Source of the DNA: a virus
Lineage: Duplodnaviria > Heunggongvirae > Uroviricota > Caudoviricetes
Strand: one strand, 5' to 3'
DNA length: 52,062 nucleotides
Virus record (IMG/VR): IMGVR_UViG_2531839330_000009
Positions 40,409 to 49,172 of the stretch are shown in pieces. The notes under the pieces were generated by a model. That model was not told the origin of the DNA. It made no database searches and saw only the letters and a list, made by a program, of their open reading frames with translations. Position 1 is the stretch's first letter. Each line of letters begins with the position of its first letter. A program made the position numbers and the translations under genes.

Positions 40409-40636
40409 TTAAGTTAACGTTACCCGCTGACGTCGATATTCTCGCAGAGAGCGATAACCCAACGCACTGTGCGGATGGTTTTCATTGTAATGTTCGATCG
40501 CCACTGCAAGATTATGCAATGCCGTTCTTACATTCGGTTTCGGCATGAACGCGATGTAGTCTTCCTTCATCGTTTTCACGAACCTTTCTGCCATTCCATT
40601 ACTCTGAGGACTGCTGATTGCCCATGAGGAGTACAA
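40409..40636 (-). pseudogene. IS3-family (IS2-like) transposase C-terminal remnant
   Basis: …[15 protein letters not shown]…[18 protein letters not shown] is the OrfB C-terminus; no upstream transposase body. Confidence 0.6.
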
Positions 40637-40903: not shown

Positions 40904-41533
40904 CAACAGAAAACCCCGTAAAAGCTGCATTGTTTAGCATGTTTATCTAACGGTTTGTAACTTCTGTTCTAACGTCCGCTATCACTTACAAACGCCTATA
41001 CGTTGTTATGGGCTTTGGTAGTGTAACACGTATGGGCGAGTAGTTCCCAGGCTCAACCTCGTAACAAGTTCCTTTGAAGCTGGAAGACGTGCCACCGTCT
41101 CTAAACCTTCTACCAAAACTCTTAGCAAGATGTTCCACACCTGGCGCGGTGTCCAATGATGCTACACGTCGTGAGACGTTGCAGAGGATAAACAGGCTAA
41201 ATGATGGGAAGAGTTTTAAGTGCAATAGTGGATCAAAGCCCACCTCTTCAAAACCTAACTTGATCGGGAAAGAATCAAGCTCTAGCACGGTTTCGTCCAC
41301 CGGAGTACAACGGGTGCCTGATAAGAGAAGAACTGCTAAGACTTCATAGCTTTTGTGAAAAAGCCCTTTTTAGTGGATACGCCTACGGCGCTTATTTTTT
41401 GGTATAACCATCAAAGGCGCTTTATGGCTCCTATTGTCTTGAAAATGTATCTTTACTTGTATTGTGTTTTATGCGTAGTCTCCCTGTGTAGTATGTAACT
41501 TGTTAATTTTCATATGAATACAGAGGCAACACG

Positions 41534-41686
41534 ATGAAAAACATTGCAGCTATAAAACGTAATAACCGCAAGATTCACGCTCGTAAGTTCCTGTCTACGC
41601 CAGAGGGAAAAGCCTGGCTAGAGCGTAAACAGCGAGAGAACGAAGAAAGAAAACTCCTTAGTGAGTTGAAATGGCTTAAGGATTGA
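41534..41686 (+). CDS. small basic protein (50 aa), hypothetical
   Basis: ATG with AGAGG RBS 7 nt upstream; followed by a long hairpin. Confidence 0.3.
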   Translation: MKNIAAIKRNNRKIHARKFLSTPEGKAWLERKQRENEERKLLSELKWLKD

Positions 41687-41696
41687 ATCACCAGTA

Positions 41697-41738
41697 GGCG
41701 CATAACACATCCAGCGATCAAAGATGTGTTTATGCGCC
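41697..41738 (+). other. long imperfect hairpin (15-bp arms)
   Basis: GGCGCATAACACATC ... GATGTGTTTATGCGCC, then AT-rich tract. Confidence 0.4.
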
Positions 41739-42236
41739 TGATAGTGAAATTATTAAAGTTTTTTAGTTAATGTAGCCATTGCATGAACGATGATCGCTAG
41801 TGAATCGATTTTATCTCGAGGGGTAAAATAGATGAGGTATATGATGGTAACAATTACAGCTAAAGTAATTGTGGTTCTGCAGGTTTTTAAAATGGATGAG
41901 ATAAAGCGCATAGATACCCCCTATTGATTTAACAATAGCAAAGTATCATTTATTTTTTATTGCACGCAACATGCAAATTTTCACATATAATAGTTTACTA
42001 TTCACTTTGTATGGTGTCAACAAGATGATGTGTTGTTTTGTTTGATTTGTTCAAGATAATGTTTCATTTTCTCATCTATATAACTTGTGTTTTAGATAAT
42101 TTCACTAATTGTAAAAGTTACGTATTGCTTAATAGCTACCTTTTTATCTGAAATCGGCGCAGACGTGATCAATGTTTAACGCGAAGATCAGCGGCGTCAG
42201 GTCCACGCAGCGACAATTCTCAAATATCAGGAGGCA

Positions 42237-42794
42237 TTACGCTTCCTGCTCTTTCTTAATACGTTGCACTGTCTGTGTGCTGACACTGAAATCTTTTGCT
42301 ACGCTCCGAATTGATCCACCATTCGCGAGAGCGGCAACAATTCCCGCTCGATCAATTGCTTTTCCATTACCACGTTTTGCTATACGCCCAGCTGCCTTAG
42401 CTGCTGCGATCCCTTCACGTTGACGCTCAAGCATCATTTCACGTTCCATTTGTGCCACTGCTGCAAGCACTGTGAGCATCATATTCCCTGCGGGAGAGTT
42501 CTTCCCTGTCTTAAAGTCTTCTTTATGGAAATGCACAGACACGCCGCGCTCTGTTAATTGCTCAACCGTTGCCAGTAGGTCGGCTGTATTACGGCAAAGT
42601 CGATCAATGCTGTGAACATGCAAAACATCACCTTCACGCACATAGTTCATCATTGCCTCAAACTGTGGGCGCTGGGTATTCTTGCCTGACGCTTTATCTT
42701 CAAAGACTTTATCAAGAGTTACTCCAGCTAATTGACGGTCTGTGTTTTGTTGGACAGTCGATACCCTAATGTATCCAATATTAGCCATTTTCAT
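42237..42794 (-). CDS. small serine recombinase (resolvase/invertase family)
   Basis: 185 aa; IGYIRVSTVQQ catalytic Ser motif, C-terminal HTH; start at 42794 or 42788. Confidence 0.8.
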   Translation of the reverse strand: MKMANIGYIRVSTVQQNTDRQLAGVTLDKVFEDKASGKNTQRPQFEAMMNYVREGDVLHVHSIDRLCRNTADLLATVEQLTERGVSVHFHKEDFKTGKNSPAGNMMLTVLAAVAQMEREMMLERQREGIAAAKAAGRIAKRGNGKAIDRAGIVAALANGGSIRSVAKDFSVSTQTVQRIKKEQEA

Positions 42795-43297
42795 TTTCCT
42801 TCTGTGTTGATTTGTGTGTAGTGATTATTGATCGTGTTGATTAGGTGTGTAAAGGACTTTTTTCACTACGAAATTCGAAGGTTTTTAGTGTGGTGATTTA
42901 GCCTGCTTTATCACTACACGTCTTGCATGAGAATCATGTGGTTACGTTTTGGTAAAATTAGCAAGCTATTAAATAGTGTGTTTATTTTGAAAAAATAATT
43001 TTTTGTTGCATTAAAGAAAACTTGTTCGACAGATAATAGATTGATTTTTAATCAATAATTTCTGATAGTGCTCTGTAAGCCGCATTACACAAGGATTTGC
43101 GAAAGTGATGTAAAAGTGAAGAAAGCTAACATTGCACTTTTTAAGCTACTTTTCATTGAATTTTTAGTATGGAATTACATAAGGATTAATCATCAATTAA
43201 TCTTGAATTTAAGCCTGTTTTAGATGTTTAATTTTGGTAGCAAGAAACACTTTTAGAAGATCATTGCACAGATGTTATGTGATAAATGGATGTAACG

Positions 43298-43349
43298 GTA
43301 GGTCACTGTGAGCTAGGGGGTAGGTCACTGTGAGCTAGGGGGTAGGTCA
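43298..43349. repeat. tandem 22-bp direct repeats (2.4 copies), iteron-like
   Basis: GTAGGTCACTGTGAGCTAGGGG x2 plus partial third copy. Confidence 0.7.
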
Positions 43350-43490
43350 ATTTGAACCACAATAAGACTAACGATAATACTAATAATAAAACTAACTATT
43401 AAACTATATAATATAATTCTTTTTTATCTTTATAAGAATAATTATAGGGATACCCGTTAGGGAGTCTAACGACTATCCCTTAATCTATTG

Positions 43491-43514
43491 GCATTCGCCA
43501 GAACCTTGCACAAG
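43491..43514. repeat. 24-bp inverted-repeat arm A
   Basis: GCATTCGCCAGAACCTTGCACAAG; reverse complement matches 43830-43853 at 23/24. Confidence 0.55.
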
Positions 43515-43829
43515 TTAGACTGATACTTCTCATAACACATAGTTTTTTGTTTGTTGATGTTAGTTAGTAGATCTATGTTCGCTAATGCCGCTCACAACGA
43601 ATATGTAATCTACTATGTGCAAATAGCCTACGGCTTGCGTAAGGCTAAATAGTCTTGCGCTGTGCGCAGAACGATAATTAACTAACTACCATCTAACGAT
43701 TGAAATTTACTTGTGCAATAACCTGAGCGTAAGCGAATGGTTGTTAGTGTCTATGCGCTGTGCGCTTCAATAGTTCCATTGATGAGGCTTACGCCAATCT
43801 AACGATCATCAATCATCTAAAATAAATTT

Positions 43830-43853
43830 CTTGTGCAATGTTCTGGCGAATGC
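43830..43853. repeat. 24-bp inverted-repeat arm B
   Basis: CTTGTGCAATGTTCTGGCGAATGC; related direct copies of CTTGTGCAAT / GCGAATG near 43710-43740 and 44165-44178. Confidence 0.55.
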
Positions 43854-44302
43854 AATTAGAGTAGCGTTACCCCTTTGGGGATGCTAACGCATAACTATAG
43901 ATCAACCATCAAACAGACAAAAAAGAAAAATATGGTTTAAAGATGTTAGGTAGTAGATGAGATTCTACCCCTTAAATAAGCCTCTGGCGAGCTAAACAGC
44001 CTCTACATAAGGGAATGTATTGTTTTTATCAAAACCTCGTTAGAACGCATTTTAGAGCGTTTTAGAGAATAAGGAAGAATAGGAGTACTCGTAAGAGCAC
44101 GAATTGCTCGTAAGTGCATGAAAAAGATCGATTTTTTTCGGAAATGGTATTGACAAACGTCTCTTTCTGTGCAATAATAGGTATTAGAGGGACAGGAATA
44201 GATTCTTATCCTCTAAATAATTAAACCAATGCACCGCACTTTGAAGCCCAAGGCTTGCAAGGTGTCTTTTTCTTTTAACCAAATAGAATAGGAGGTTAAT
44301 TA

Positions 44303-44485
44303 ATGAAATATTTCACTCCACAGGATGTAGTAGAAGCCTGGAAACGTGGTGAGATCAACCGCTTTAAAGTAAGGATGTATAGAAACACCGCTCGCCGTTG
44401 TGGTTATCCAGAGCGTGAAAAATGCTTTGACGATGCACTAAAAATTATTGATGAACTGCGTAAGGCAGAAGCAGAGAAAGAATAA
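44303..44485 (+). CDS. hypothetical small protein
   Basis: 60 aa with GGAGG RBS. Confidence 0.35.
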   Translation: MKYFTPQDVVEAWKRGEINRFKVRMYRNTARRCGYPEREKCFDDALKIIDELRKAEAEKE

Positions 44486-44506
44486 TAACAGGAGAAGGAG
44501 AAAACT

Positions 44507-44674
44507 ATGAGCGAAACCAAGAAACCAATTCCACGCACTTACCTACACGTTGACCCTGAAATTTTCAAGATTTTATTTGCTGAAGCCAAGAAAAGGCAAA
44601 TTATGGTCAGTGATTTGATGTTAGAAATCATTACTGAAGCAGCAGAGAACATCAAACAAAAAAAGGGTAAGTGA
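44507..44674 (+). CDS. ribbon-helix-helix-like small DNA-binding protein
   Basis: 55 aa, strong AGGAGAAGGAG RBS; beta-strand then two helices (TYLHVDPEIFKILFAEAKKRQIMVSDLMLEII). Confidence 0.4.
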   Translation: MSETKKPIPRTYLHVDPEIFKILFAEAKKRQIMVSDLMLEIITEAAENIKQKKGK

Positions 44675-44725
44675 TCCTCATTCACTTTAGTAGCGCATTA
44701 AGCGTGATTTATAAGGAGATTTTTA

Positions 44726-45352
44726 ATGATAAACCAGCCAACTTTTACAAAACACTATAACACGTTTGATAATATATCAAAGATTTACTCTAATGAATTT
44801 CCAGAAGGTAAGGTTTTAGATTTATTGCACATTGTTCTTTATTATAGATTTCTTAGTTATCAGGAAAATGGTCTTAATTGTTATGAAAGTCACGAAACAT
44901 TAGCTAAGATTTTTAAGTCTTCACCATCAACAATTAAACGTAAGATAAACGATCTTAAAGAGATGGGATTATTAGAAACATCCCCACATCCTGATCCGTA
45001 TATTTCATCTTTGATTTACAATGCTCTCCCTCTCACAGATGCACATATTACTCCCCCAGGAGAGTCATCACTACCTGATCCTTCTGAGAAAGAAAACGAA
45101 TCTAATGAAATATTGAATGTTTCAGAAATCATCGTTGAAGAAGAAAAACAGGAATCAGAGTTCCCTGAGCGGCCCGAAATTTTTACTTGGCTTCTTTCCC
45201 TTGATAAGAAGAAACCACCGCACGAAGAAACAGAAGATTTTGTAAAACGAGCATTAGATTCAAAGAATATCTATCTTTGTGAAAATGATTTTGACTCTTT
45301 GATAATTGATCTCAAAAGTGAGAGCACAATATATGATTCACTACCCTTTTAA
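44726..45352 (+). CDS. winged-helix DNA-binding protein, possibly replication initiator/regulator
   Basis: 208 aa; wHTH-like region (ESHETLAKIFKSSPSTIKRKINDLKEMGLL); acidic C-terminus. Confidence 0.4.
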   Translation: MINQPTFTKHYNTFDNISKIYSNEFPEGKVLDLLHIVLYYRFLSYQENGLNCYESHETLAKIFKSSPSTIKRKINDLKEMGLLETSPHPDPYISSLIYNALPLTDAHITPPGESSLPDPSEKENESNEILNVSEIIVEEEKQESEFPERPEIFTWLLSLDKKKPPHEETEDFVKRALDSKNIYLCENDFDSLIIDLKSESTIYDSLPF

Positions 45353-45619
45353 GGAGAATAAATGGCTTATAACATCACTATAGGAAACAAAACTATTGAA
45401 ATAACTGAGAGCGGATACCACATTTTAAAAGCTATTTTGGAAATAGAGTTCTCACCGCCGACAGTGGTTAGCTTTTAGGGTTTAGCTCCTATCATCATTT
45501 TTTGGGATTTAACGCTTTCAATAATTGTGTAGGTGGTGCATCGGAAGTCGATCTGATGGCTCATTTAGAATGATACATTAGCTTCTAACAAACGTTCTAA
45601 CTAATAAAATGATGGGCGT

Positions 45620-45865
45620 ATGTATAAGCGCCCAATGAAAATATTCAAAAAAGGAAAAATAATGATTGGCTATATTCAAGAAACACAATTATTTCAGATG
45701 ATCCTGTCTGATGCAAAAAACTATGCTGAGTTAATCCGACTGGCAAAAGAAACAGAAGACTACGAAGCATTAGAGCGTTATCGTGATGAAGTGCTGACGC
45801 TCAAGACACCTTTTAACATCGTATTGAATATGATTAATGATGCATTACAAGGAGAAGCCGCATAA
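45620..45865 (+). CDS. hypothetical protein
   Basis: 81-aa ORF in AT-rich element; start uncertain. Confidence 0.3.
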   Translation: MYKRPMKIFKKGKIMIGYIQETQLFQMILSDAKNYAELIRLAKETEDYEALERYRDEVLTLKTPFNIVLNMINDALQGEAA

Positions 45866-46173
45866 TGGAAGAAGATATTAGCAATGCAATGGAACAACTT
45901 TTAGATCTGACTATCTCACTACAAACAAGAATAAATCAAGCCTATTCAGATTTATGCGATTACACGCTCTCTCAATGCGTTATTAGCTTAATGAAGGTGA
46001 ATGTAAGCCTTGACGATTTTATCTCTCTGGTGAGCGATTTAGAGCTAATTGAGGACGATGCCAAGATGTGCACTCAAATCATCACAGACACCGCCAGCAC
46101 GTTAAAGGCTGCAAGTGAAGAGATTCAGCAATTAGTAGATGATTTAGCAAAAAGTGCTATTTCTTCTAAGTGA
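45865..46173 (+). CDS. hypothetical protein
   Basis: 102-aa ORF, ATGG overlap with upstream ORF. Confidence 0.3.
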   Translation: MEEDISNAMEQLLDLTISLQTRINQAYSDLCDYTLSQCVISLMKVNVSLDDFISLVSDLELIEDDAKMCTQIITDTASTLKAASEEIQQLVDDLAKSAISSK

Positions 46174-47157
46174 TAATGAAAATCATTTGCATTTATAACG
46201 ATTTCATTATATAATGATATTAGGGGTAGATAAAAAGGTTTTGACTGGTGTTAATCCTTCTACTGTCATAAATCCCTGCATATGGAAGGTGATAGCCTCA
46301 AAGGTTGAGTGGCATTAACCTCTAACAAATATTACCTTCCATCTCTCAAGAAGTTTTAGAATAATCATAACTCCCTCTTTGATTGTTGATTGTTTCTACG
46401 TTGTGTTGATGAATGTTGTTAGGCATTGTGCTTAATTTTGATAAAAGCGGGTAGGTGTTATCTCCTTGCCCTTCCCGCTCTTATTTTTCATCTATGCTTA
46501 TCCTAAAGCTCCTTATTTTGTCAGAAAACATTAAAGAGCCTTACACTGATAGTTATATTTTATAACTATTTACTAACATCATTAAACTATTATTTAATGA
46601 CAGAAGTTAGTAACAGAATAATCTATTAAGTTGTTGTCAAAAACAATCATCTGCATAGCGTTAGCCGCAAGCAGAGAGAGTTTAGCTAAGAATGGTGCAA
46701 TAAACTTTGGAAATATTGATAGCAAAACGGGTTTTATAGAATGCGGATCTATAAGCTTTGGTTGTAAAAACGATTTTCTGAAACGGTAGATTACTGTTGG
46801 TGTAGTTAATCATTATTAAAAATTTAATCTGTGAGTAGATTGGAATAGTGATTCCTTAAAATCTGACTGGTGCATCCACACCATGAAAGATAGCGGTTGG
46901 CCACCGCGCCCCGAATAGATATTCCTGATTGATTCCGCATGTTTTCCTAAGAGCATGTTTTCAGGAGTATCTATTCACCCTTTAAGCATATCATCAAGTA
47001 TATTTAAAAAGTGTATTTGCTGATATGTTTAATCCTCTTATAGTTTAACTTATCAATTATGTAATTGCCCGCACGTTAAAGCCCCTTTGCTGGTCAGAAT
47101 TAACCTCTTACGGCATTGGGGCTTTTTATTTGTCTGGCACTAACAGGAACGTTATTT

Positions 47158-47355
47158 ATGAAACAAGAAATGATTATCAGCAAAGACGGGGAAACGATGA
47201 TTGTTAGTGATGAAAACCTCATTAAGGTTGCCGCACTGTTGGGAATTACTCCCGAAAGTCTTCGTTCTACCACTGCTCAATTATTTAAATCGGCTGATGC
47301 GGTTAGTCTTGCTGATGCCCTTAAATCTAAAATTAAACAACTGAAAGGAAAATAA
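47158..47355 (+). CDS. hypothetical small protein
   Basis: Internal ATG with AGGAA RBS; 65 aa. Confidence 0.3.
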   Translation: MKQEMIISKDGETMIVSDENLIKVAALLGITPESLRSTTAQLFKSADAVSLADALKSKIKQLKGK

Positions 47356-47359
47356 TCTT

Positions 47360-47743
47360 ATGGCTAACCCATATGGAAAATTAAAAGCAGTGAATGCGGA
47401 TAACTCCCGTTCACGCTGTAAGGTAGTAGCTTACGCTGCTGATCCAGTGCTGCAAGATCGCCTCGTCAAACTGGCTTCACCTCTCACTGACGATCTTATT
47501 GTCGGGGCTTTGCTGAAAGCCGATGGCACCAAAGCAACAACCGCATCTGATATTGCTCACATAGTAGTTGAACCGGCTTATGAAGGACAGGAAAGCGTAG
47601 TGGTTGCACATCCTACTTTCGTTATTCTGGCTGAAGATGGGATTGAATTTAACAGCATGGAAAAGGCAAGTGTTATTGCAAAACTGCAATCTCTCGGCTT
47701 TGTAATTGCTAGTTATGAAGAACTTGCGATCCCTACGACTTAA
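47360..47743 (+). CDS. hypothetical protein (possible phage structural)
   Basis: 127-aa ORF tightly packed with neighbours. Confidence 0.35.
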   Translation: MANPYGKLKAVNADNSRSRCKVVAYAADPVLQDRLVKLASPLTDDLIVGALLKADGTKATTASDIAHIVVEPAYEGQESVVVAHPTFVILAEDGIEFNSMEKASVIAKLQSLGFVIASYEELAIPTT

Positions 47744-47757
47744 CAAGGAAAATAATA

Positions 47758-48789
47758 ATGAATGATTTATCAACATATTTTGGCGTTAATACTGCGGTAG
47801 TAACTCCATTTGCTTATGAGAATGCACTTAATACCCTGATTACTAATCTCGATCTGTTCGATGTGCAATATCATACAGAAAACAGCATTCTTCTTACCGA
47901 CCTGATTGATCAGTTTGTGCAGGTAGCTGGGGAAACCTCACCTTACGCTCAAAGCGACTGGAACGCCTCTAAACGTCAGGAATGGTCAAACAAACTTTTC
48001 CAGATGAAACACGTCGGCAGTATTAACGCTGTTACTTCTCGTGACCTGGAACAATACAGCCGCCAATATCCAAACCGTTCTGATGCTATGCTGGTAGCGG
48101 TTAATGATTTCTCTGAGGCTCATTACCGTTCACACGCAAACCGTGTTGAAGTGGATCTGATTACCGCGCTGCTGGGCCTGAAAGTTGAATCTGAATATGC
48201 CGGACAAGGTGATCTCGACTTCCTCGACGGTCAGGCTAAAACCACGGTACCCGCTATCGACTTTGCATCGACAACTGTTAACCCGTTCCTTGCTATTCGT
48301 AAAGCGGTGCGCTTACAGAGTGAAAAGCTGGGGTCTGGTCTTGCTGCAAAGCGAACTGGTGTAATTATCTTTGCTGCTGGCGCTGCTGCTGATGGTTTGT
48401 CATCTAACCCGCTGATCAGTGACATGGTGAAATATGCAGGCGATGCGAGTGCTACGGCCCTGTTTACCCGTATGGTTGATTCTAACCCAGCCTATGACTC
48501 TTTCCAGATTGGTGGGATCACTGTTATTGATGTGTCAATGTTTCCTGAGATTGTTGCTCACATCGGAGAGAACGGTTTCGCAATTGTTCCGGTAATGGAT
48601 AAAGCGGCACAGTGTTACCAGCTTCATAGCGGCGTTGGTGTGCGTCATGCTGAGTTAGGTCAAGATGCCGTGTTGCATCACCAATATCTAATCAAGGATG
48701 AATTCCAATTCCCATCTGTGGTTACTGAGACATCTTATCTGCCAGTAAACAACATTCCGCAAGCTATCATCTTCGGATCTGCTGCGTAA
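47758..48789 (+). CDS. putative phage structural protein (major tail or capsid; unresolved)
   Basis: 343-aa ORF; family not recognised. Confidence 0.35.
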   Translation: MNDLSTYFGVNTAVVTPFAYENALNTLITNLDLFDVQYHTENSILLTDLIDQFVQVAGETSPYAQSDWNASKRQEWSNKLFQMKHVGSINAVTSRDLEQYSRQYPNRSDAMLVAVNDFSEAHYRSHANRVEVDLITALLGLKVESEYAGQGDLDFLDGQAKTTVPAIDFASTTVNPFLAIRKAVRLQSEKLGSGLAAKRTGVIIFAAGAAADGLSSNPLISDMVKYAGDASATALFTRMVDSNPAYDSFQIGGITVIDVSMFPEIVAHIGENGFAIVPVMDKAAQCYQLHSGVGVRHAELGQDAVLHHQYLIKDEFQFPSVVTETSYLPVNNIPQAIIFGSAA

Positions 48790-48940
48790 TAAAGCGTTAA
48801 TAGACGATTCCCCATCGGGGCAATAAGGGTAAAGGGATTAACTAACCTGTAGGCGCAAATACAGTAACGAATCTCTTTGCCCTTTTTGTTTTTCTACTGT
48901 CTACAAACCCAAATAAAAATATATATGTGAGAGAAAACCA

Positions 48941-49138
48941 ATGAATACAGAAAACCCACAATCCTTTATTCTTAAGGCTGTAAAAGAACTGGCAGCTATT
49001 AGCGATGACTCAATAATCAATGTCAGTGCCTTATGCAGAATGCTTTCAATTGATGCAAATAATGTGCGGCAGCGTGTGTTTCAGACTGGGTGCAGCACTT
49101 TTGAGGCAATCCAATATTATTGCTCTAAAAAACAATAA
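48941..49138 (+). CDS. hypothetical small protein
   Basis: 65-aa ORF. Confidence 0.25.
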   Translation: MNTENPQSFILKAVKELAAISDDSIINVSALCRMLSIDANNVRQRVFQTGCSTFEAIQYYCSKKQ

Positions 49139-49172
49139 CAAACAATAATCATAATACAGGGAAACAATTAAC

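What the first reader, a model, noticed from the sequence alone, without database searches (positions are those of the whole stretch)
43298..43853. Repeat-dense non-coding region: tandem 22-bp iterons plus a 24-bp inverted-repeat pair flanking ~315 bp, near a serine recombinase
Upstream of the serine recombinase gene there are 2.4 tandem copies of GTAGGTCACTGTGAGCTAGGGG (43298-43349), two ~100-bp imperfect direct repeats sharing TGCGCTGTGCGC / ATCTAACGAT / CTTGTGCAAT / GCGAATG motifs, and a near-perfect 24-bp inverted repeat (43491-43514 vs 43830-43853, 23/24). The TGTGCAAT motif also overlaps a promoter-like TTGACA-17-AATAAT element at 44150-44178. Possible readings: an invertible switch acted on by the recombinase, an iteron-type replication origin paired with the downstream wHTH protein, or a multi-operator array.
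Basis: seen in the sequence. Interest (0 to 1): 0.6.

Follow-up and report, generated by a model that had tools for sequence, protein, structure and literature searches.

The report
Replication origin of a mobile island
The repeat-rich stretch is most likely the replication origin and adjoining control region of a small, widespread and apparently undescribed phage-like island of E. coli, and not a DNA switch flipped by the neighbouring recombinase.

Summary
They lie in a 1.5-kb non-coding gap (42795-44302) of an ~11-12 kb integrative island found in 734 of 5,426 complete E. coli genomes. The 22-bp tandem repeat is an array of 17-bp near-palindromes. Its copy number varies from 2.4 to 4.8 among relatives. 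It is always followed by the same ~90-bp AT-rich stretch and a 33-bp palindrome. Across 48 loci the repeat cassette comes in five sequence types. Each type travels with one type of N-terminal winged-helix domain of the downstream 208-aa protein (46 of 48 loci), although the DNA between them is reshuffled. All five protein types match phage replication-initiator families. This is an iteron-type origin with its own initiator. The inverted-repeat segment was never found flipped: 0 of 700 genomes, 0 of 27 fetched loci, 0 of 29 metagenome contigs. It stays unchanged beside a serine, a different serine, a tyrosine or no recombinase. The recombinase has its own res-like site cluster next to its gene. 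The function of the conserved inverted- and direct-repeat block (43481-43967) remains open. My best guess is an origin accessory site or a factor-binding array.

The parts
42237..42794 (-). Small serine recombinase gene (185 aa), a neighbour of the region
   Evidence: Pfam Resolvase E 1e-38. It is about equally similar to Tn3/gamma-delta resolvases (1e-27) and to Gin invertase (7e-25) in the PDB.
42810..42925 (.). res-like cluster of recombinase-type sites: GTAGTGAWWW at 42818(+), 42860(-), 42890(+, one mismatch) and 42908(-). It overlaps a promoter-like site for the recombinase gene.
   Evidence: These are the only exact copies of the motif in the 52-kb window. The (-) promoter-like site lies at 42853-42824. 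The stretch 42795-43012 is present only where this recombinase gene is present.
43011..43296 (.). Conserved left flank of the origin, with ATT(A/G)CA(C/T)A motifs at 43084, 43174 and 43263
   Evidence: Present in 48 loci at 77-100% identity, including some without this recombinase.
43297..43362 (+). Iteron array: 2.4 perfect 22-bp units plus a degenerate third. Each unit is the 17-bp near-palindrome TAGGTCAC-T-GTGAGCTA followed by GGGGG.
   Evidence: TRF and the repeat finder. Relatives carry 2.4-4.8 copies. The cassette type tracks the initiator's N-terminal type.
43350..43440 (.). AT-rich stretch, the presumed DNA-unwinding element, with a 12-nt periodic ACAATAAAACTA run
   Evidence: 74-90% A+T in 50-bp bins. 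TRF rows 43359-43413. It follows the array in every cassette type.
43447..43479 (.). 33-bp palindrome h1 (GGGATACCCGTTAG-GGAGT-CTAACGACTATCCC) that closes the origin cassette
   Evidence: I3. It is a perfect 14-bp stem in L013. It is duplicated together with the iterons and the AT-rich stretch in L015 and L027.
43481..43514 (.). Left arm of the inverted repeat (contains CATTCGC and TTGCACAAG)
   Evidence: Invariant in 36 unique sequences.
43515..43829 (.). Segment between the arms. It holds a T-run at 43543-43576, a hairpin at 43624-43647, and two motif sets: TGCGCTGTGCGC, ATCTAACGAT, CTTGTGCAAT, GCGAATG.
   Evidence: Relatives have one or two motif sets, collapsed at ATCTAACGAT or at TGCGCTGTGCGC. 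It always has the same orientation.
43830..43863 (.). Right arm of the inverted repeat (TGCAAT-11 nt-TGCAAT)
   Evidence: It exists in two allelic forms, with no compensating change in the left arm. It is missing in L027-type relatives.
43864..43890 (.). Hairpin/palindrome hR (GCGTTA-CCCC-TTT-GGGG-ATGC-TAACGC), followed by an A-run at 43897-43930
   Evidence: The second allele reads GTGCTA-CGC-GTTA-GCG-ATGT-TAGCAC, with two compensated pairs. L015 has a compensated CCC/GGG shortening.
43968..44302 (+). Promoter and leader module of the island's rightward operon: promoter-like site 44150-44178, leader hairpin 44185-44215, terminator-like hairpin plus U-run 44231-44276, RBS 44290
   Evidence: This is the most widely shared part of the gap, present in ~700 genomes.
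44726..45352 (+). Gene for the 208-aa initiator-like protein: N-terminal winged helix, acidic disordered linker, helical C-domain, and the tail ...IYDSLPF
   Evidence: Pfam HTH_36. PHROG replication-initiator families hit all five N-terminal types. AlphaFold2 model. Modular alignment A1.

Best explanation
Positions 43297-43479 are the replication origin of an ~11-12 kb integrative, phage-satellite-like island. The 22-bp repeats are iterons. Each carries a 17-bp near-palindrome that would be bound, probably as a dimer, by the N-terminal winged-helix domain of the island's own 208-aa initiator-like protein (44726-45352). Binding next to the ~90-bp AT-rich stretch would open the DNA. A 33-bp palindrome closes the cassette, the same order of parts as in ori-lambda.

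The island encodes no recognisable helicase, loader or primase. The replisome would therefore come from the host or from a helper phage, recruited through the initiator's C-terminal domain and its SSB-tip-like tail.

The rest of the finding (43481-43967: the inverted repeat, the one-or-two motif sets and the flanking hairpins) is a conserved cis-acting block next to the origin. It most likely acts as an accessory site that binds a host or helper factor, or serves as a priming site. It does not invert.

The neighbouring serine recombinase most likely acts on its own res-like site cluster at 42810-42925, for example to resolve multimers of the replicating circle.

Shown here: the repeat anatomy, the co-variation of the cassette with the protein domain, the initiator-family matches, the absence of inversion, and the independence of the block from the recombinase type. 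Inferred: binding, DNA melting, replisome recruitment, and the roles of the block and of the recombinase.
For: Iteron anatomy and its polymorphism
- Repeats, AT-rich stretch and palindrome.

Five cassette types, each with its own N-terminal domain type of the protein, while the C-terminal half is shared
- A: TAGGTCACTGTGAGCTA
- A': CGGTCACGATGACCG
- B: AACAGAAAACTGTTA
- C: GTAACGATnnGTTAC
- D: TAGGAAATGAGTTCCTA

Co-variation
- 25 of 27 genome and viral loci are concordant, and 21 of 21 metagenome loci that include the gene.
- The block between the array and the gene occurs in different forms with the same initiator type, and in the same form with different types. The pairing has therefore survived recombination.
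- In tandem double cassettes, the cognate array is the one nearest the gene (L027).

Initiator class
- All 8 tested proteins, covering all five types, hit PHROG families annotated as replication initiation protein, O-like, or DnaD-like loader (8/8 for phrog_270 and phrog_391).
- No transcription-regulator family was hit.

Precedent
- The Vibrio satellite PLE keeps its origin, made of semi-palindromic iterons for RepA, in a 2.7-kb non-coding region (PMC7145576).

No inversion
-.
Against: - This copy has only 2.4 iterons, the fewest in the family, so its origin may be weak.
- No DnaA box (TTWTNCACA) and only one IHF-consensus match were found in the gap.
- No helicase, loader or primase was recognised among the island ORFs scanned.
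- The winged-helix fold is generic. Foldseek gave no PDB match at E<=0.001. The top matches mix MarR-type regulators with RepA_N plasmid initiators (4pql, 4pt7, 5kbj), on a model with mean pLDDT 66.
- No tblastn relative exists on plasmids outside this island.
- L016 pairs an A' protein with only D-type repeats, and L004 has no array.
- Many of the loci are near-identical copies, so the number of independent array-protein pairings is about five types in roughly a dozen contexts.
- Nothing here shows replication directly.
Confidence: 0.65

Rival explanations
1. Invertible switch. The serine recombinase recombines the two inverted-repeat arms and flips the 315-bp segment, changing expression of the recombinase gene or of the rightward operon.
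For: An inverted repeat longer than chance flanks a short segment. A small serine recombinase that PHROG calls a DNA invertase lies 690 bp away.
Against: - A query with the segment flipped found no genome covering >=80% of it, against 85 for the native order.
- All 27 fetched loci and all 29 metagenome contigs have the native junction.
- The exact flipped junction has 0 matches in metagenome contigs.
- The block is unchanged in L016 (tyrosine recombinase), L014 (unrelated serine recombinase, opposite strand) and L018/L020 (no homologue of this recombinase).
- The right arm exists in two alleles with no matching change in the left arm. L027-type relatives lack it altogether.
- The recombinase has its own clustered sites next to its gene.
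Confidence: 0.03
2. Operator array. The wHTH protein is the island's transcriptional regulator (for example a repressor). The 22-bp palindromes and the TGTGCAAT/GCGAATG motifs are operators controlling the divergent recombinase and operon promoters, with no role in replication.
For: - Palindromic units fit a dimeric regulator.
- NCBI annotates the protein as a transcriptional regulator.
- The Foldseek top hits include MarR-type repressors.
- TGTGCAA is concentrated in the gap and overlaps the -10 region of the promoter.
- No other repressor is evident in the island.
Against: - The array lies ~850 bp from the operon promoter and ~500 bp from the recombinase start, so it overlaps neither.
- It is always joined to an AT-rich stretch and a palindrome, and the three are duplicated as one unit.
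- Every profile match of known function is to replication initiators or loaders.
- Relatives with the second promoter variant lack TGTGCAAT at the promoter but keep the same block.
Confidence: 0.15
3. RNA gene. The block 43440-43970 is transcribed into a structured RNA of up to ~0.5 kb. The two arms would close a large domain. The RNA could act in copy-number control or in immunity, as the CI RNA does in satellite P4 (recalled from my own knowledge).
For: - The predicted fold is far more stable than shuffles (z -7.5).
- Several hairpins carry GNRA-like loops, seen by eye in the sequence.
- Hairpin hR keeps its shape through two compensated pairs and one compensated deletion.
- The core is nearly invariant.
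- No protein repressor was found in the island.
Against: - There is no Rfam match at E<=1.
- Both strands fold equally well (-160.6 and -161.3 kcal/mol), so nothing points to a transcribed strand.
- The long-range helix is not maintained by compensation: the right arm has two alleles and the left arm is fixed.
- The second arm pair (43543-43576 with 43897-43930) crosses the first.
- No convincing promoter-terminator pair brackets the block.
- There is too little sequence variation for a covariation test.
Confidence: 0.08
4. Packaging or partition site. The block is the signal by which a helper phage's terminase packages the island, or a centromere-like site for segregation of the excised circle.
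For: - A satellite with capsid-like and tail-like genes but no terminase needs a cis packaging signal.
- The block is conserved while the replication specificity modules are exchanged. That fits a site read by shared outside machinery.
- L002-type islands carry a different block.
Against: - blastn at 'distant' sensitivity found no similarity of 42800-44300 to any of 50,697 phage records.
- There is no match to the neighbouring prophage in the window, nor to the lambda or P2 cos sequences.
- No partition ATPase was seen among the scanned ORFs.
- A second non-coding gap (46174-47115), just upstream of the head genes, is an equally good place for a packaging site.
Confidence: 0.07

Closest known systems
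ori-lambda with the O initiator (lambdoid phages)
   Same: Both have direct repeats at about two helical turns, each with internal dyad symmetry. Both are followed by an AT-rich stretch and then a palindrome. In both, the initiator has an N-terminal winged-helix domain that sets iteron specificity, and a separate C-terminal part that recruits other proteins. PHROG 'O-like' families are hit. The lambda anatomy is from my own knowledge.
   Different: Here the origin lies 1.4 kb upstream of the initiator gene in a non-coding gap, not inside the gene. No P-like loader gene was found. The window has only 2.4 repeats. The protein is small (208 aa) and ends in an SSB-tip-like tail. Sequence similarity is limited to weak profile matches (E 1e-4 to 1e-9).
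PLE satellite of Vibrio cholerae: origin in a non-coding region, with RepA
   Same: In both, a large non-coding region of a phage satellite holds several repeat families. The origin repeats are semi-palindromic iterons for the satellite's own initiator (PMC7145576).
   Different: [quoted passage not shown] Here the structural resemblance to RepA_N is only suggestive (TM 0.43-0.52 normalised to the target, E>0.001). The host genus and the gene content differ.
SaPI/PICI replication origins
   Same: Both have iterons flanking or adjoining an AT-rich stretch in an integrative satellite, with an element-specific pairing of initiator and iterons (own knowledge).
   Different: PICI initiators are primase-helicase (Pri-Rep) proteins with the origin downstream of rep. 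This island encodes neither activity.
Hin/Gin/Cin/Pin invertible segments
   Same: Both have a small serine recombinase gene next to a segment bounded by inverted repeats.
   Different: No second orientation was found anywhere. The arms do not co-vary with the recombinase. The arms are 34 nt long and resemble none of the hix/gix sites as I recall them. The segment holds no strong promoter and no gene.
Tn3 / gamma-delta res-resolvase, and plasmid multimer-resolution systems
   Same: The recombinase is as close to Tn3/gamma-delta resolvase as to Gin. A ~110-bp cluster of four short sites in alternating orientation sits directly upstream of its gene and overlaps its promoter-like site.
   Different: The sub-site structure is inferred from a 10-nt motif only. 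No resolution activity was tested. This concerns the neighbour of the finding, not the finding itself.
P4 crr (cis replication region)
   Same: In both, a replication-linked cis region made of two ~100-120-bp direct repeats lies apart from the iteron core, and one copy appears to be enough. Here relatives have one or two motif sets. The P4 facts are recalled from memory.
   Different: The P4 crr repeats carry the same octamer iterons as the origin. The motif sets here contain no copy of the 22-bp iteron.

Membership tests
Iteron-type replication origin (lambda-O-like or plasmid-like) | Several direct repeats of an initiator-binding site at helical phasing | tested here: met
   2.4 perfect 22-bp copies in the window and up to 4.8 in relatives; periods of 22-23 bp in four of the five cassette types, while the type-C sites are irregularly spaced.
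Iteron-type replication origin (lambda-O-like or plasmid-like) | Adjacent AT-rich DNA-unwinding element | tested here: met
   43345-43444 is 74-90% A+T and follows the array in every cassette type.
Iteron-type replication origin (lambda-O-like or plasmid-like) | Cognate initiator encoded by the same element, with specificity matched to the iterons | tested here: met
   Five array types pair with five N-terminal domain types in 46 of 48 loci, despite reshuffling of the DNA between them. PHROG initiator families match 8 of 8 proteins. Binding itself was not tested.
Iteron-type replication origin (lambda-O-like or plasmid-like) | DnaA boxes or IHF sites (plasmid-type origins) | tested here: not met
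   No TTWTNCACA anywhere in the gap, and one IHF-consensus match at 43034. Lambda-type origins do not require these.
Iteron-type replication origin (lambda-O-like or plasmid-like) | Supports initiator-dependent replication | not testable with these tools
   Needs a mini-replicon or marker-frequency experiment.
Invertible DNA switch (Hin/Gin type) | Inverted repeats bounding the segment | tested here: met
   34-nt arms, 88% complementary; above the shuffle range.
Invertible DNA switch (Hin/Gin type) | Both orientations present among isolates or assemblies | tested here: not met
   0 of 700 genomes for the flipped query against 85 for the native order. 0 of 27 loci. 0 of 29 metagenome contigs. 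0 matches to the flipped junction.
Invertible DNA switch (Hin/Gin type) | Crossover sites specific to, and inherited with, the recombinase | tested here: not met
   The same block sits next to a serine, an unrelated serine, a tyrosine or no homologous recombinase. The right arm varies without any change in the left arm.
Known RNA family (Rfam) | Covariance-model match | tested here: not met
   No match at E<=1 in 41500-47500. Only tRNA and TPP riboswitch matches in L001-L004.
Structured non-coding RNA (new) | Base pairs kept by compensatory change, with a strand preference | tested here: inconclusive
   Hairpin hR shows two compensated pairs. The long-range helix shows none. Both strands fold equally well. 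The core is too invariant to test.
IS, MITE or REP-type repeat | Copies dispersed in unrelated genomic contexts | tested here: not met
   The median is one place per genome, always inside this island family. There is a single copy in the window. Among species-representative genomes it was found only in an E. coli contig and one probably mis-binned MAG contig.
Described phage-satellite families (P4-like, PICI, cfPICI, PLE), for the island as a whole | Hallmark genes: primase-helicase/alpha, Psu/Delta/Sid, AlpA, small terminase, portal and protease | tested here: not met
   Pfam, PHROG and NCBIfam scans of the main ORFs gave only a resolvase, a wHTH initiator-like protein, a weak major-head hit, a tape-measure hit and an integrase. 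The hallmark lists are from my own knowledge, and not every small ORF was scanned.

The most novel reading that the evidence does not exclude
The island belongs to an undescribed family of E. coli phage satellites. It carries its own lambda-gpE-type capsid protein, a tape-measure-like protein and a baseplate-like protein, but no terminase. It replicates from a cassette-exchangeable origin using a minimal initiator. That initiator's C-terminal tail (…DFDIPF or …YDSLPF) would mimic the SSB tip and so pull host primosome proteins directly to the origin. The almost invariant 0.5-kb block (43481-43967) would then be a new kind of cis element read by that host or helper machinery. It could be a priming or packaging signal, or a P4-style regulatory RNA.
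Probability: 0.15. Interest if true: 0.7.

Novelty: new member of a known kind. Interest (0 to 1): 0.4.

Why it matters
The result assigns a function to a 1.5-kb stretch that is left unannotated in more than 700 complete E. coli genomes, and it removes a tempting but wrong phase-variation reading. It also gives a natural set of five matched iteron and winged-helix pairs that could be used to study how initiator specificity is swapped between elements. Finally, it flags a common island family whose structural genes have no relatives among 50,697 phage records, and a conserved non-coding block whose role is open. If the island proves to be a mobilisable satellite, its origin and initiator are the obvious handles for following its induction.

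Tried and rejected
- Rfam at a permissive threshold over 41500-47500: nothing.
- blastn of the gap against phages: only a spurious 52-nt hit. Against plasmids: only two records, both carrying the island.
- The search for related loci with the wHTH protein in species-representative genomes: no relative.
- tblastn of the capsid-like protein against phages: no match. tblastn of the wHTH protein against phages: three weak hypothetical-protein hits. Against plasmids: only the island itself.
- phmmer of the wHTH protein against PDB sequences: nothing.
- AlphaFold2 plus Foldseek: a generic winged helix that does not discriminate.
- Lambda and P2 cos sequences, and similarity to the adjacent prophage: none in the island.
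- DnaA box and IHF scans: negative or nearly so.
- MITE or IS reading: rejected. The boundaries of the exchangeable block (43435-43967) do not coincide with the ends of the inverted repeat, and no copies occur outside the island.
- Sigma-70 or sigma-54 promoter reading of the arms (by eye): the spacing or the key bases do not fit.
- Covariation analysis of the block: abandoned because 36 unique sequences are almost identical in the core.
- Literature searches for the island, its protein accessions or a matching satellite family: nothing found.

Full report
CONTEXT

The window is E. coli chromosome at the tRNA-Thr(CGT) gene thrW (1369-1444). A lambdoid-type prophage occupies about 1459-38000, followed by IS debris. 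From about 41.4 kb a second, small element begins.

In strain C8 the same element lies directly at thrW and is about 12 kb long. Its gene order is:
- a serine recombinase on the minus strand;
- a 1.5-kb gap with no annotation;
- small ORFs;
- a 208-aa 'transcriptional regulator';
- more small ORFs;
- a 343-aa capsid-like protein (Pfam Phage_cap_E on relatives);
- a tape-measure-like protein;
- a 'baseplate' protein;
- a tyrosine integrase.

Related islands sit at a tRNA-Gly gene, next to yecR and in front of thiM. The gap sequence is found in 734 of 5,426 complete E. coli genomes and is never annotated. The finding lies entirely inside this gap (42795-44302).

THE OBSERVATION

- The tandem repeat is the best TRF hit in the window.
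- The inverted repeat extends to 34 nt at 88% complementarity and scores above all 100 shuffles.
- The 'two ~100-bp direct repeats' are an ordered set of four short shared motifs with unequal spacing, not a clean duplication.

THE 22-bp REPEAT IS AN ITERON ARRAY

Each unit is a 17-bp near-palindrome (TAGGTCAC-T-GTGAGCTA) followed by GGGGG. Relatives carry 2.4 to 4.8 units at the same place.

The array is always followed by the same ~90-bp stretch of 74-90% A+T, and then by a 33-bp palindrome at 43447-43479. In L015 and L027 the whole unit (array, AT-rich stretch, palindrome) is present twice in tandem, each time with a different array type. It therefore behaves as one cassette.

Homology between relatives breaks exactly at the first repeat (43315/43316) and resumes at about 43372. 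Between those points five different repeat types occur, all semi-palindromic; four have a 22-23 bp period and type C is irregularly spaced.

The downstream protein is modular in the same way. Its C-terminal half is shared, but its first ~105 residues come in five unrelated or diverged types (alignment A1). Array type and N-terminal type go together in 25 of 27 genome and viral loci, and in all 21 metagenome loci that include the gene. There are two exceptions:
- L016, which looks like L015 after loss of its second cassette;
- L004, a truncated island with no array.

The ~0.9 kb between the array and the gene is itself mosaic. The same initiator type occurs with different forms of that DNA, and the reverse. 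Simple linkage therefore does not explain the pairing.

All eight representative proteins, covering all five types, match PHROG families annotated as replication initiation protein, O-like initiator or DnaD-like loader. They match nothing annotated as a transcription factor. The AlphaFold2 model (mean pLDDT 66) shows a confident winged helix at residues 33-100, a disordered acidic linker, a helical C-domain and a free tail. Foldseek does not discriminate: there is no PDB match at E<=0.001, and MarR-type regulators are interleaved with RepA_N plasmid initiators.

The order of parts (dyad-symmetric iterons, AT-rich stretch, palindrome) is that of ori-lambda, which I cite from my own knowledge. 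The placement of a satellite's origin in a long repeat-rich non-coding region has a documented precedent in Vibrio PLE (PMC7145576).

NOT AN INVERTIBLE SWITCH

I built the flipped version of 43481-43863 in its native flanks and searched all complete E. coli genomes. No genome covers 80% of it in one piece, whereas 85 do so for the native order. All 27 fetched loci are co-linear with the window.

A 30-nt probe on the left arm recovered 29 metagenome contigs. All continue with the native interior, and none with the flipped one. The exact flipped junction has no match.

The block is also indifferent to the recombinase:
- L016 carries a 192-aa tyrosine recombinase with its own GATTAAA repeats at that position;
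- L014 carries an unrelated serine recombinase on the other strand;
- L018 and L020 carry no homologue of the window's recombinase.
All four keep the same block.

The right arm exists in two alleles about 60% identical, while the left arm is fixed. L027-type islands lack the right arm altogether.

The recombinase is as similar to Tn3/gamma-delta resolvase as to Gin. The only three exact copies of GTAGTGAWWW in the window, plus one with a single mismatch, lie in alternating orientation within 100 bp just upstream of its gene. They overlap its promoter-like site. That stretch is inherited with the gene. A res-like site with a resolvase that tidies up multimers of the replicating circle is the simplest reading, but it is inferred.

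THE CONSERVED BLOCK 43481-43967

What can be said about it:
- It is non-coding, with no ORF of 40 aa or more.
- Its core is almost invariant in 36 unique sequences.
- The number of motif sets is one or two, with deletions joined at the 10-12-bp repeats.
- Its flanking hairpins are kept by compensated changes. In hR, two base pairs are exchanged between alleles and one shortening is compensated. h1 is a perfect 14-bp stem in L013.
- As RNA it folds far better than shuffles, but equally well on both strands (z -7.5 and -7.4). This is what DNA-level symmetry gives.
- The two arm pairs (I1 and I2) cross each other.
- L002-type islands replace the block with an unrelated 840-bp block. That block has its own 17-nt motif twice, 105 bp apart, and shares only TTGCGCTGTGCGCAG with the window's block.
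- The TGTGCAAT copy at the operon promoter is absent in relatives with the other promoter variant, which keep the same block. An operator regulon tying the block to the promoter is therefore unlikely.
- There is no similarity to any phage record, to known cos sequences or to the neighbouring prophage.
- Among species-representative genomes, an exact 22-base probe finds it only in one E. coli contig and in one probably mis-binned MAG contig.

I therefore treat the block as a cis-acting companion of the origin that is read by machinery shared among islands, either host or helper. A transcript and a packaging signal remain open alternatives.

VERDICT

- The most eye-catching reading (invertible switch) is contradicted.
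- The third reading (operator array) remains possible for the block only.

The origin is a new member of a well-known kind. The island that carries it, and the conserved block beside it, are the parts that deserve experimental follow-up. I found no description of this island in the searchable literature. That is absence of evidence within that library only.

Noticed in passing
window 41400-52062 (island continues beyond the window); L001 10114-22900: An ~11-12 kb integrative island family is present in 734 of 5,426 complete E. coli genomes, at several integration sites. It has a lambda-gpE-type capsid-like protein (47758-48789) with no tblastn hit in 50,697 phage records, a tape-measure-like protein (49173-51074), a 'baseplate' protein and a tyrosine integrase. 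No terminase, portal or protease was recognised. I found no description of it in the literature searches.
   Followed up: partly
window 45329-45352 (C-terminus of the 208-aa protein); L002 10440-10460: The initiator-like proteins end in …IYDSLPF or …(E/D)DFDIPF in 110 of 120 homologues. This resembles the E. coli SSB C-terminal tip DDDIPF, which docks many replication and repair proteins (PMC5872125). The tail is disordered in the model. It may recruit SSB partners to the origin.
   Followed up: partly
window 42810-42925: The only exact copies of GTAGTGAWWW in the window (42818+, 42860-, 42908-), plus a one-mismatch copy (42890+), cluster just upstream of the recombinase gene and overlap its promoter-like site. 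This is a res-like arrangement that is inherited with the gene.
   Followed up: partly
window 44150-44302: The strong promoter-like site (44150-44178) is followed by a leader hairpin (44185-44215) and a 13-bp-stem hairpin with a U-run (44231-44276), all before the RBS. These predict a ~90-nt leader RNA or an attenuator in front of the operon. The apical stem differs among relatives while pairing is kept (AGCC-CAA-GGCT versus GCCG-TCA-GGC).
   Followed up: partly
window 44040-44069: A 10-bp tandem repeat (TTTTAGAGCG / GCGTTTTAGA) lies upstream of the promoter. Its copy number varies from about 1 to 2.8 among relatives.
   Followed up: no
window 46174-47115: A second gap of ~940 bp without ORFs or annotation lies just upstream of the head-like genes. 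It is also unannotated in relatives (L001 15886-16869) and holds a 16-bp tandem repeat at 46185-46218. It is a candidate site for a packaging signal or a late promoter.
   Followed up: no
L015 2340-2700; L027 3790-4130: Some relatives carry two complete origin cassettes in tandem (array, AT-rich stretch, palindrome) with different iteron types. The one matching the resident initiator lies nearer the gene. L016 appears to have lost the matching cassette.
   Followed up: partly
L002 6398-9337; L003 6369-9328: Related islands at tRNA-Gly have no recombinase gene and a ~2.9-kb non-coding region. It holds several further repeat families: ATTACACA(G/A)GG seven times, TACCCCTATCAA three times, and GTAACGATnnGTTAC sites in addition to their cognate iterons.
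   Followed up: partly
window 1459-41400: A lambdoid-type prophage is integrated in tandem with the island at thrW, followed by IS fragments (for example the transposase remnant at 40409-40636). Over all of 41401-52062, the island shares no similarity with it beyond one 15-nt chance-level match at 50548-50562.
   Followed up: partly
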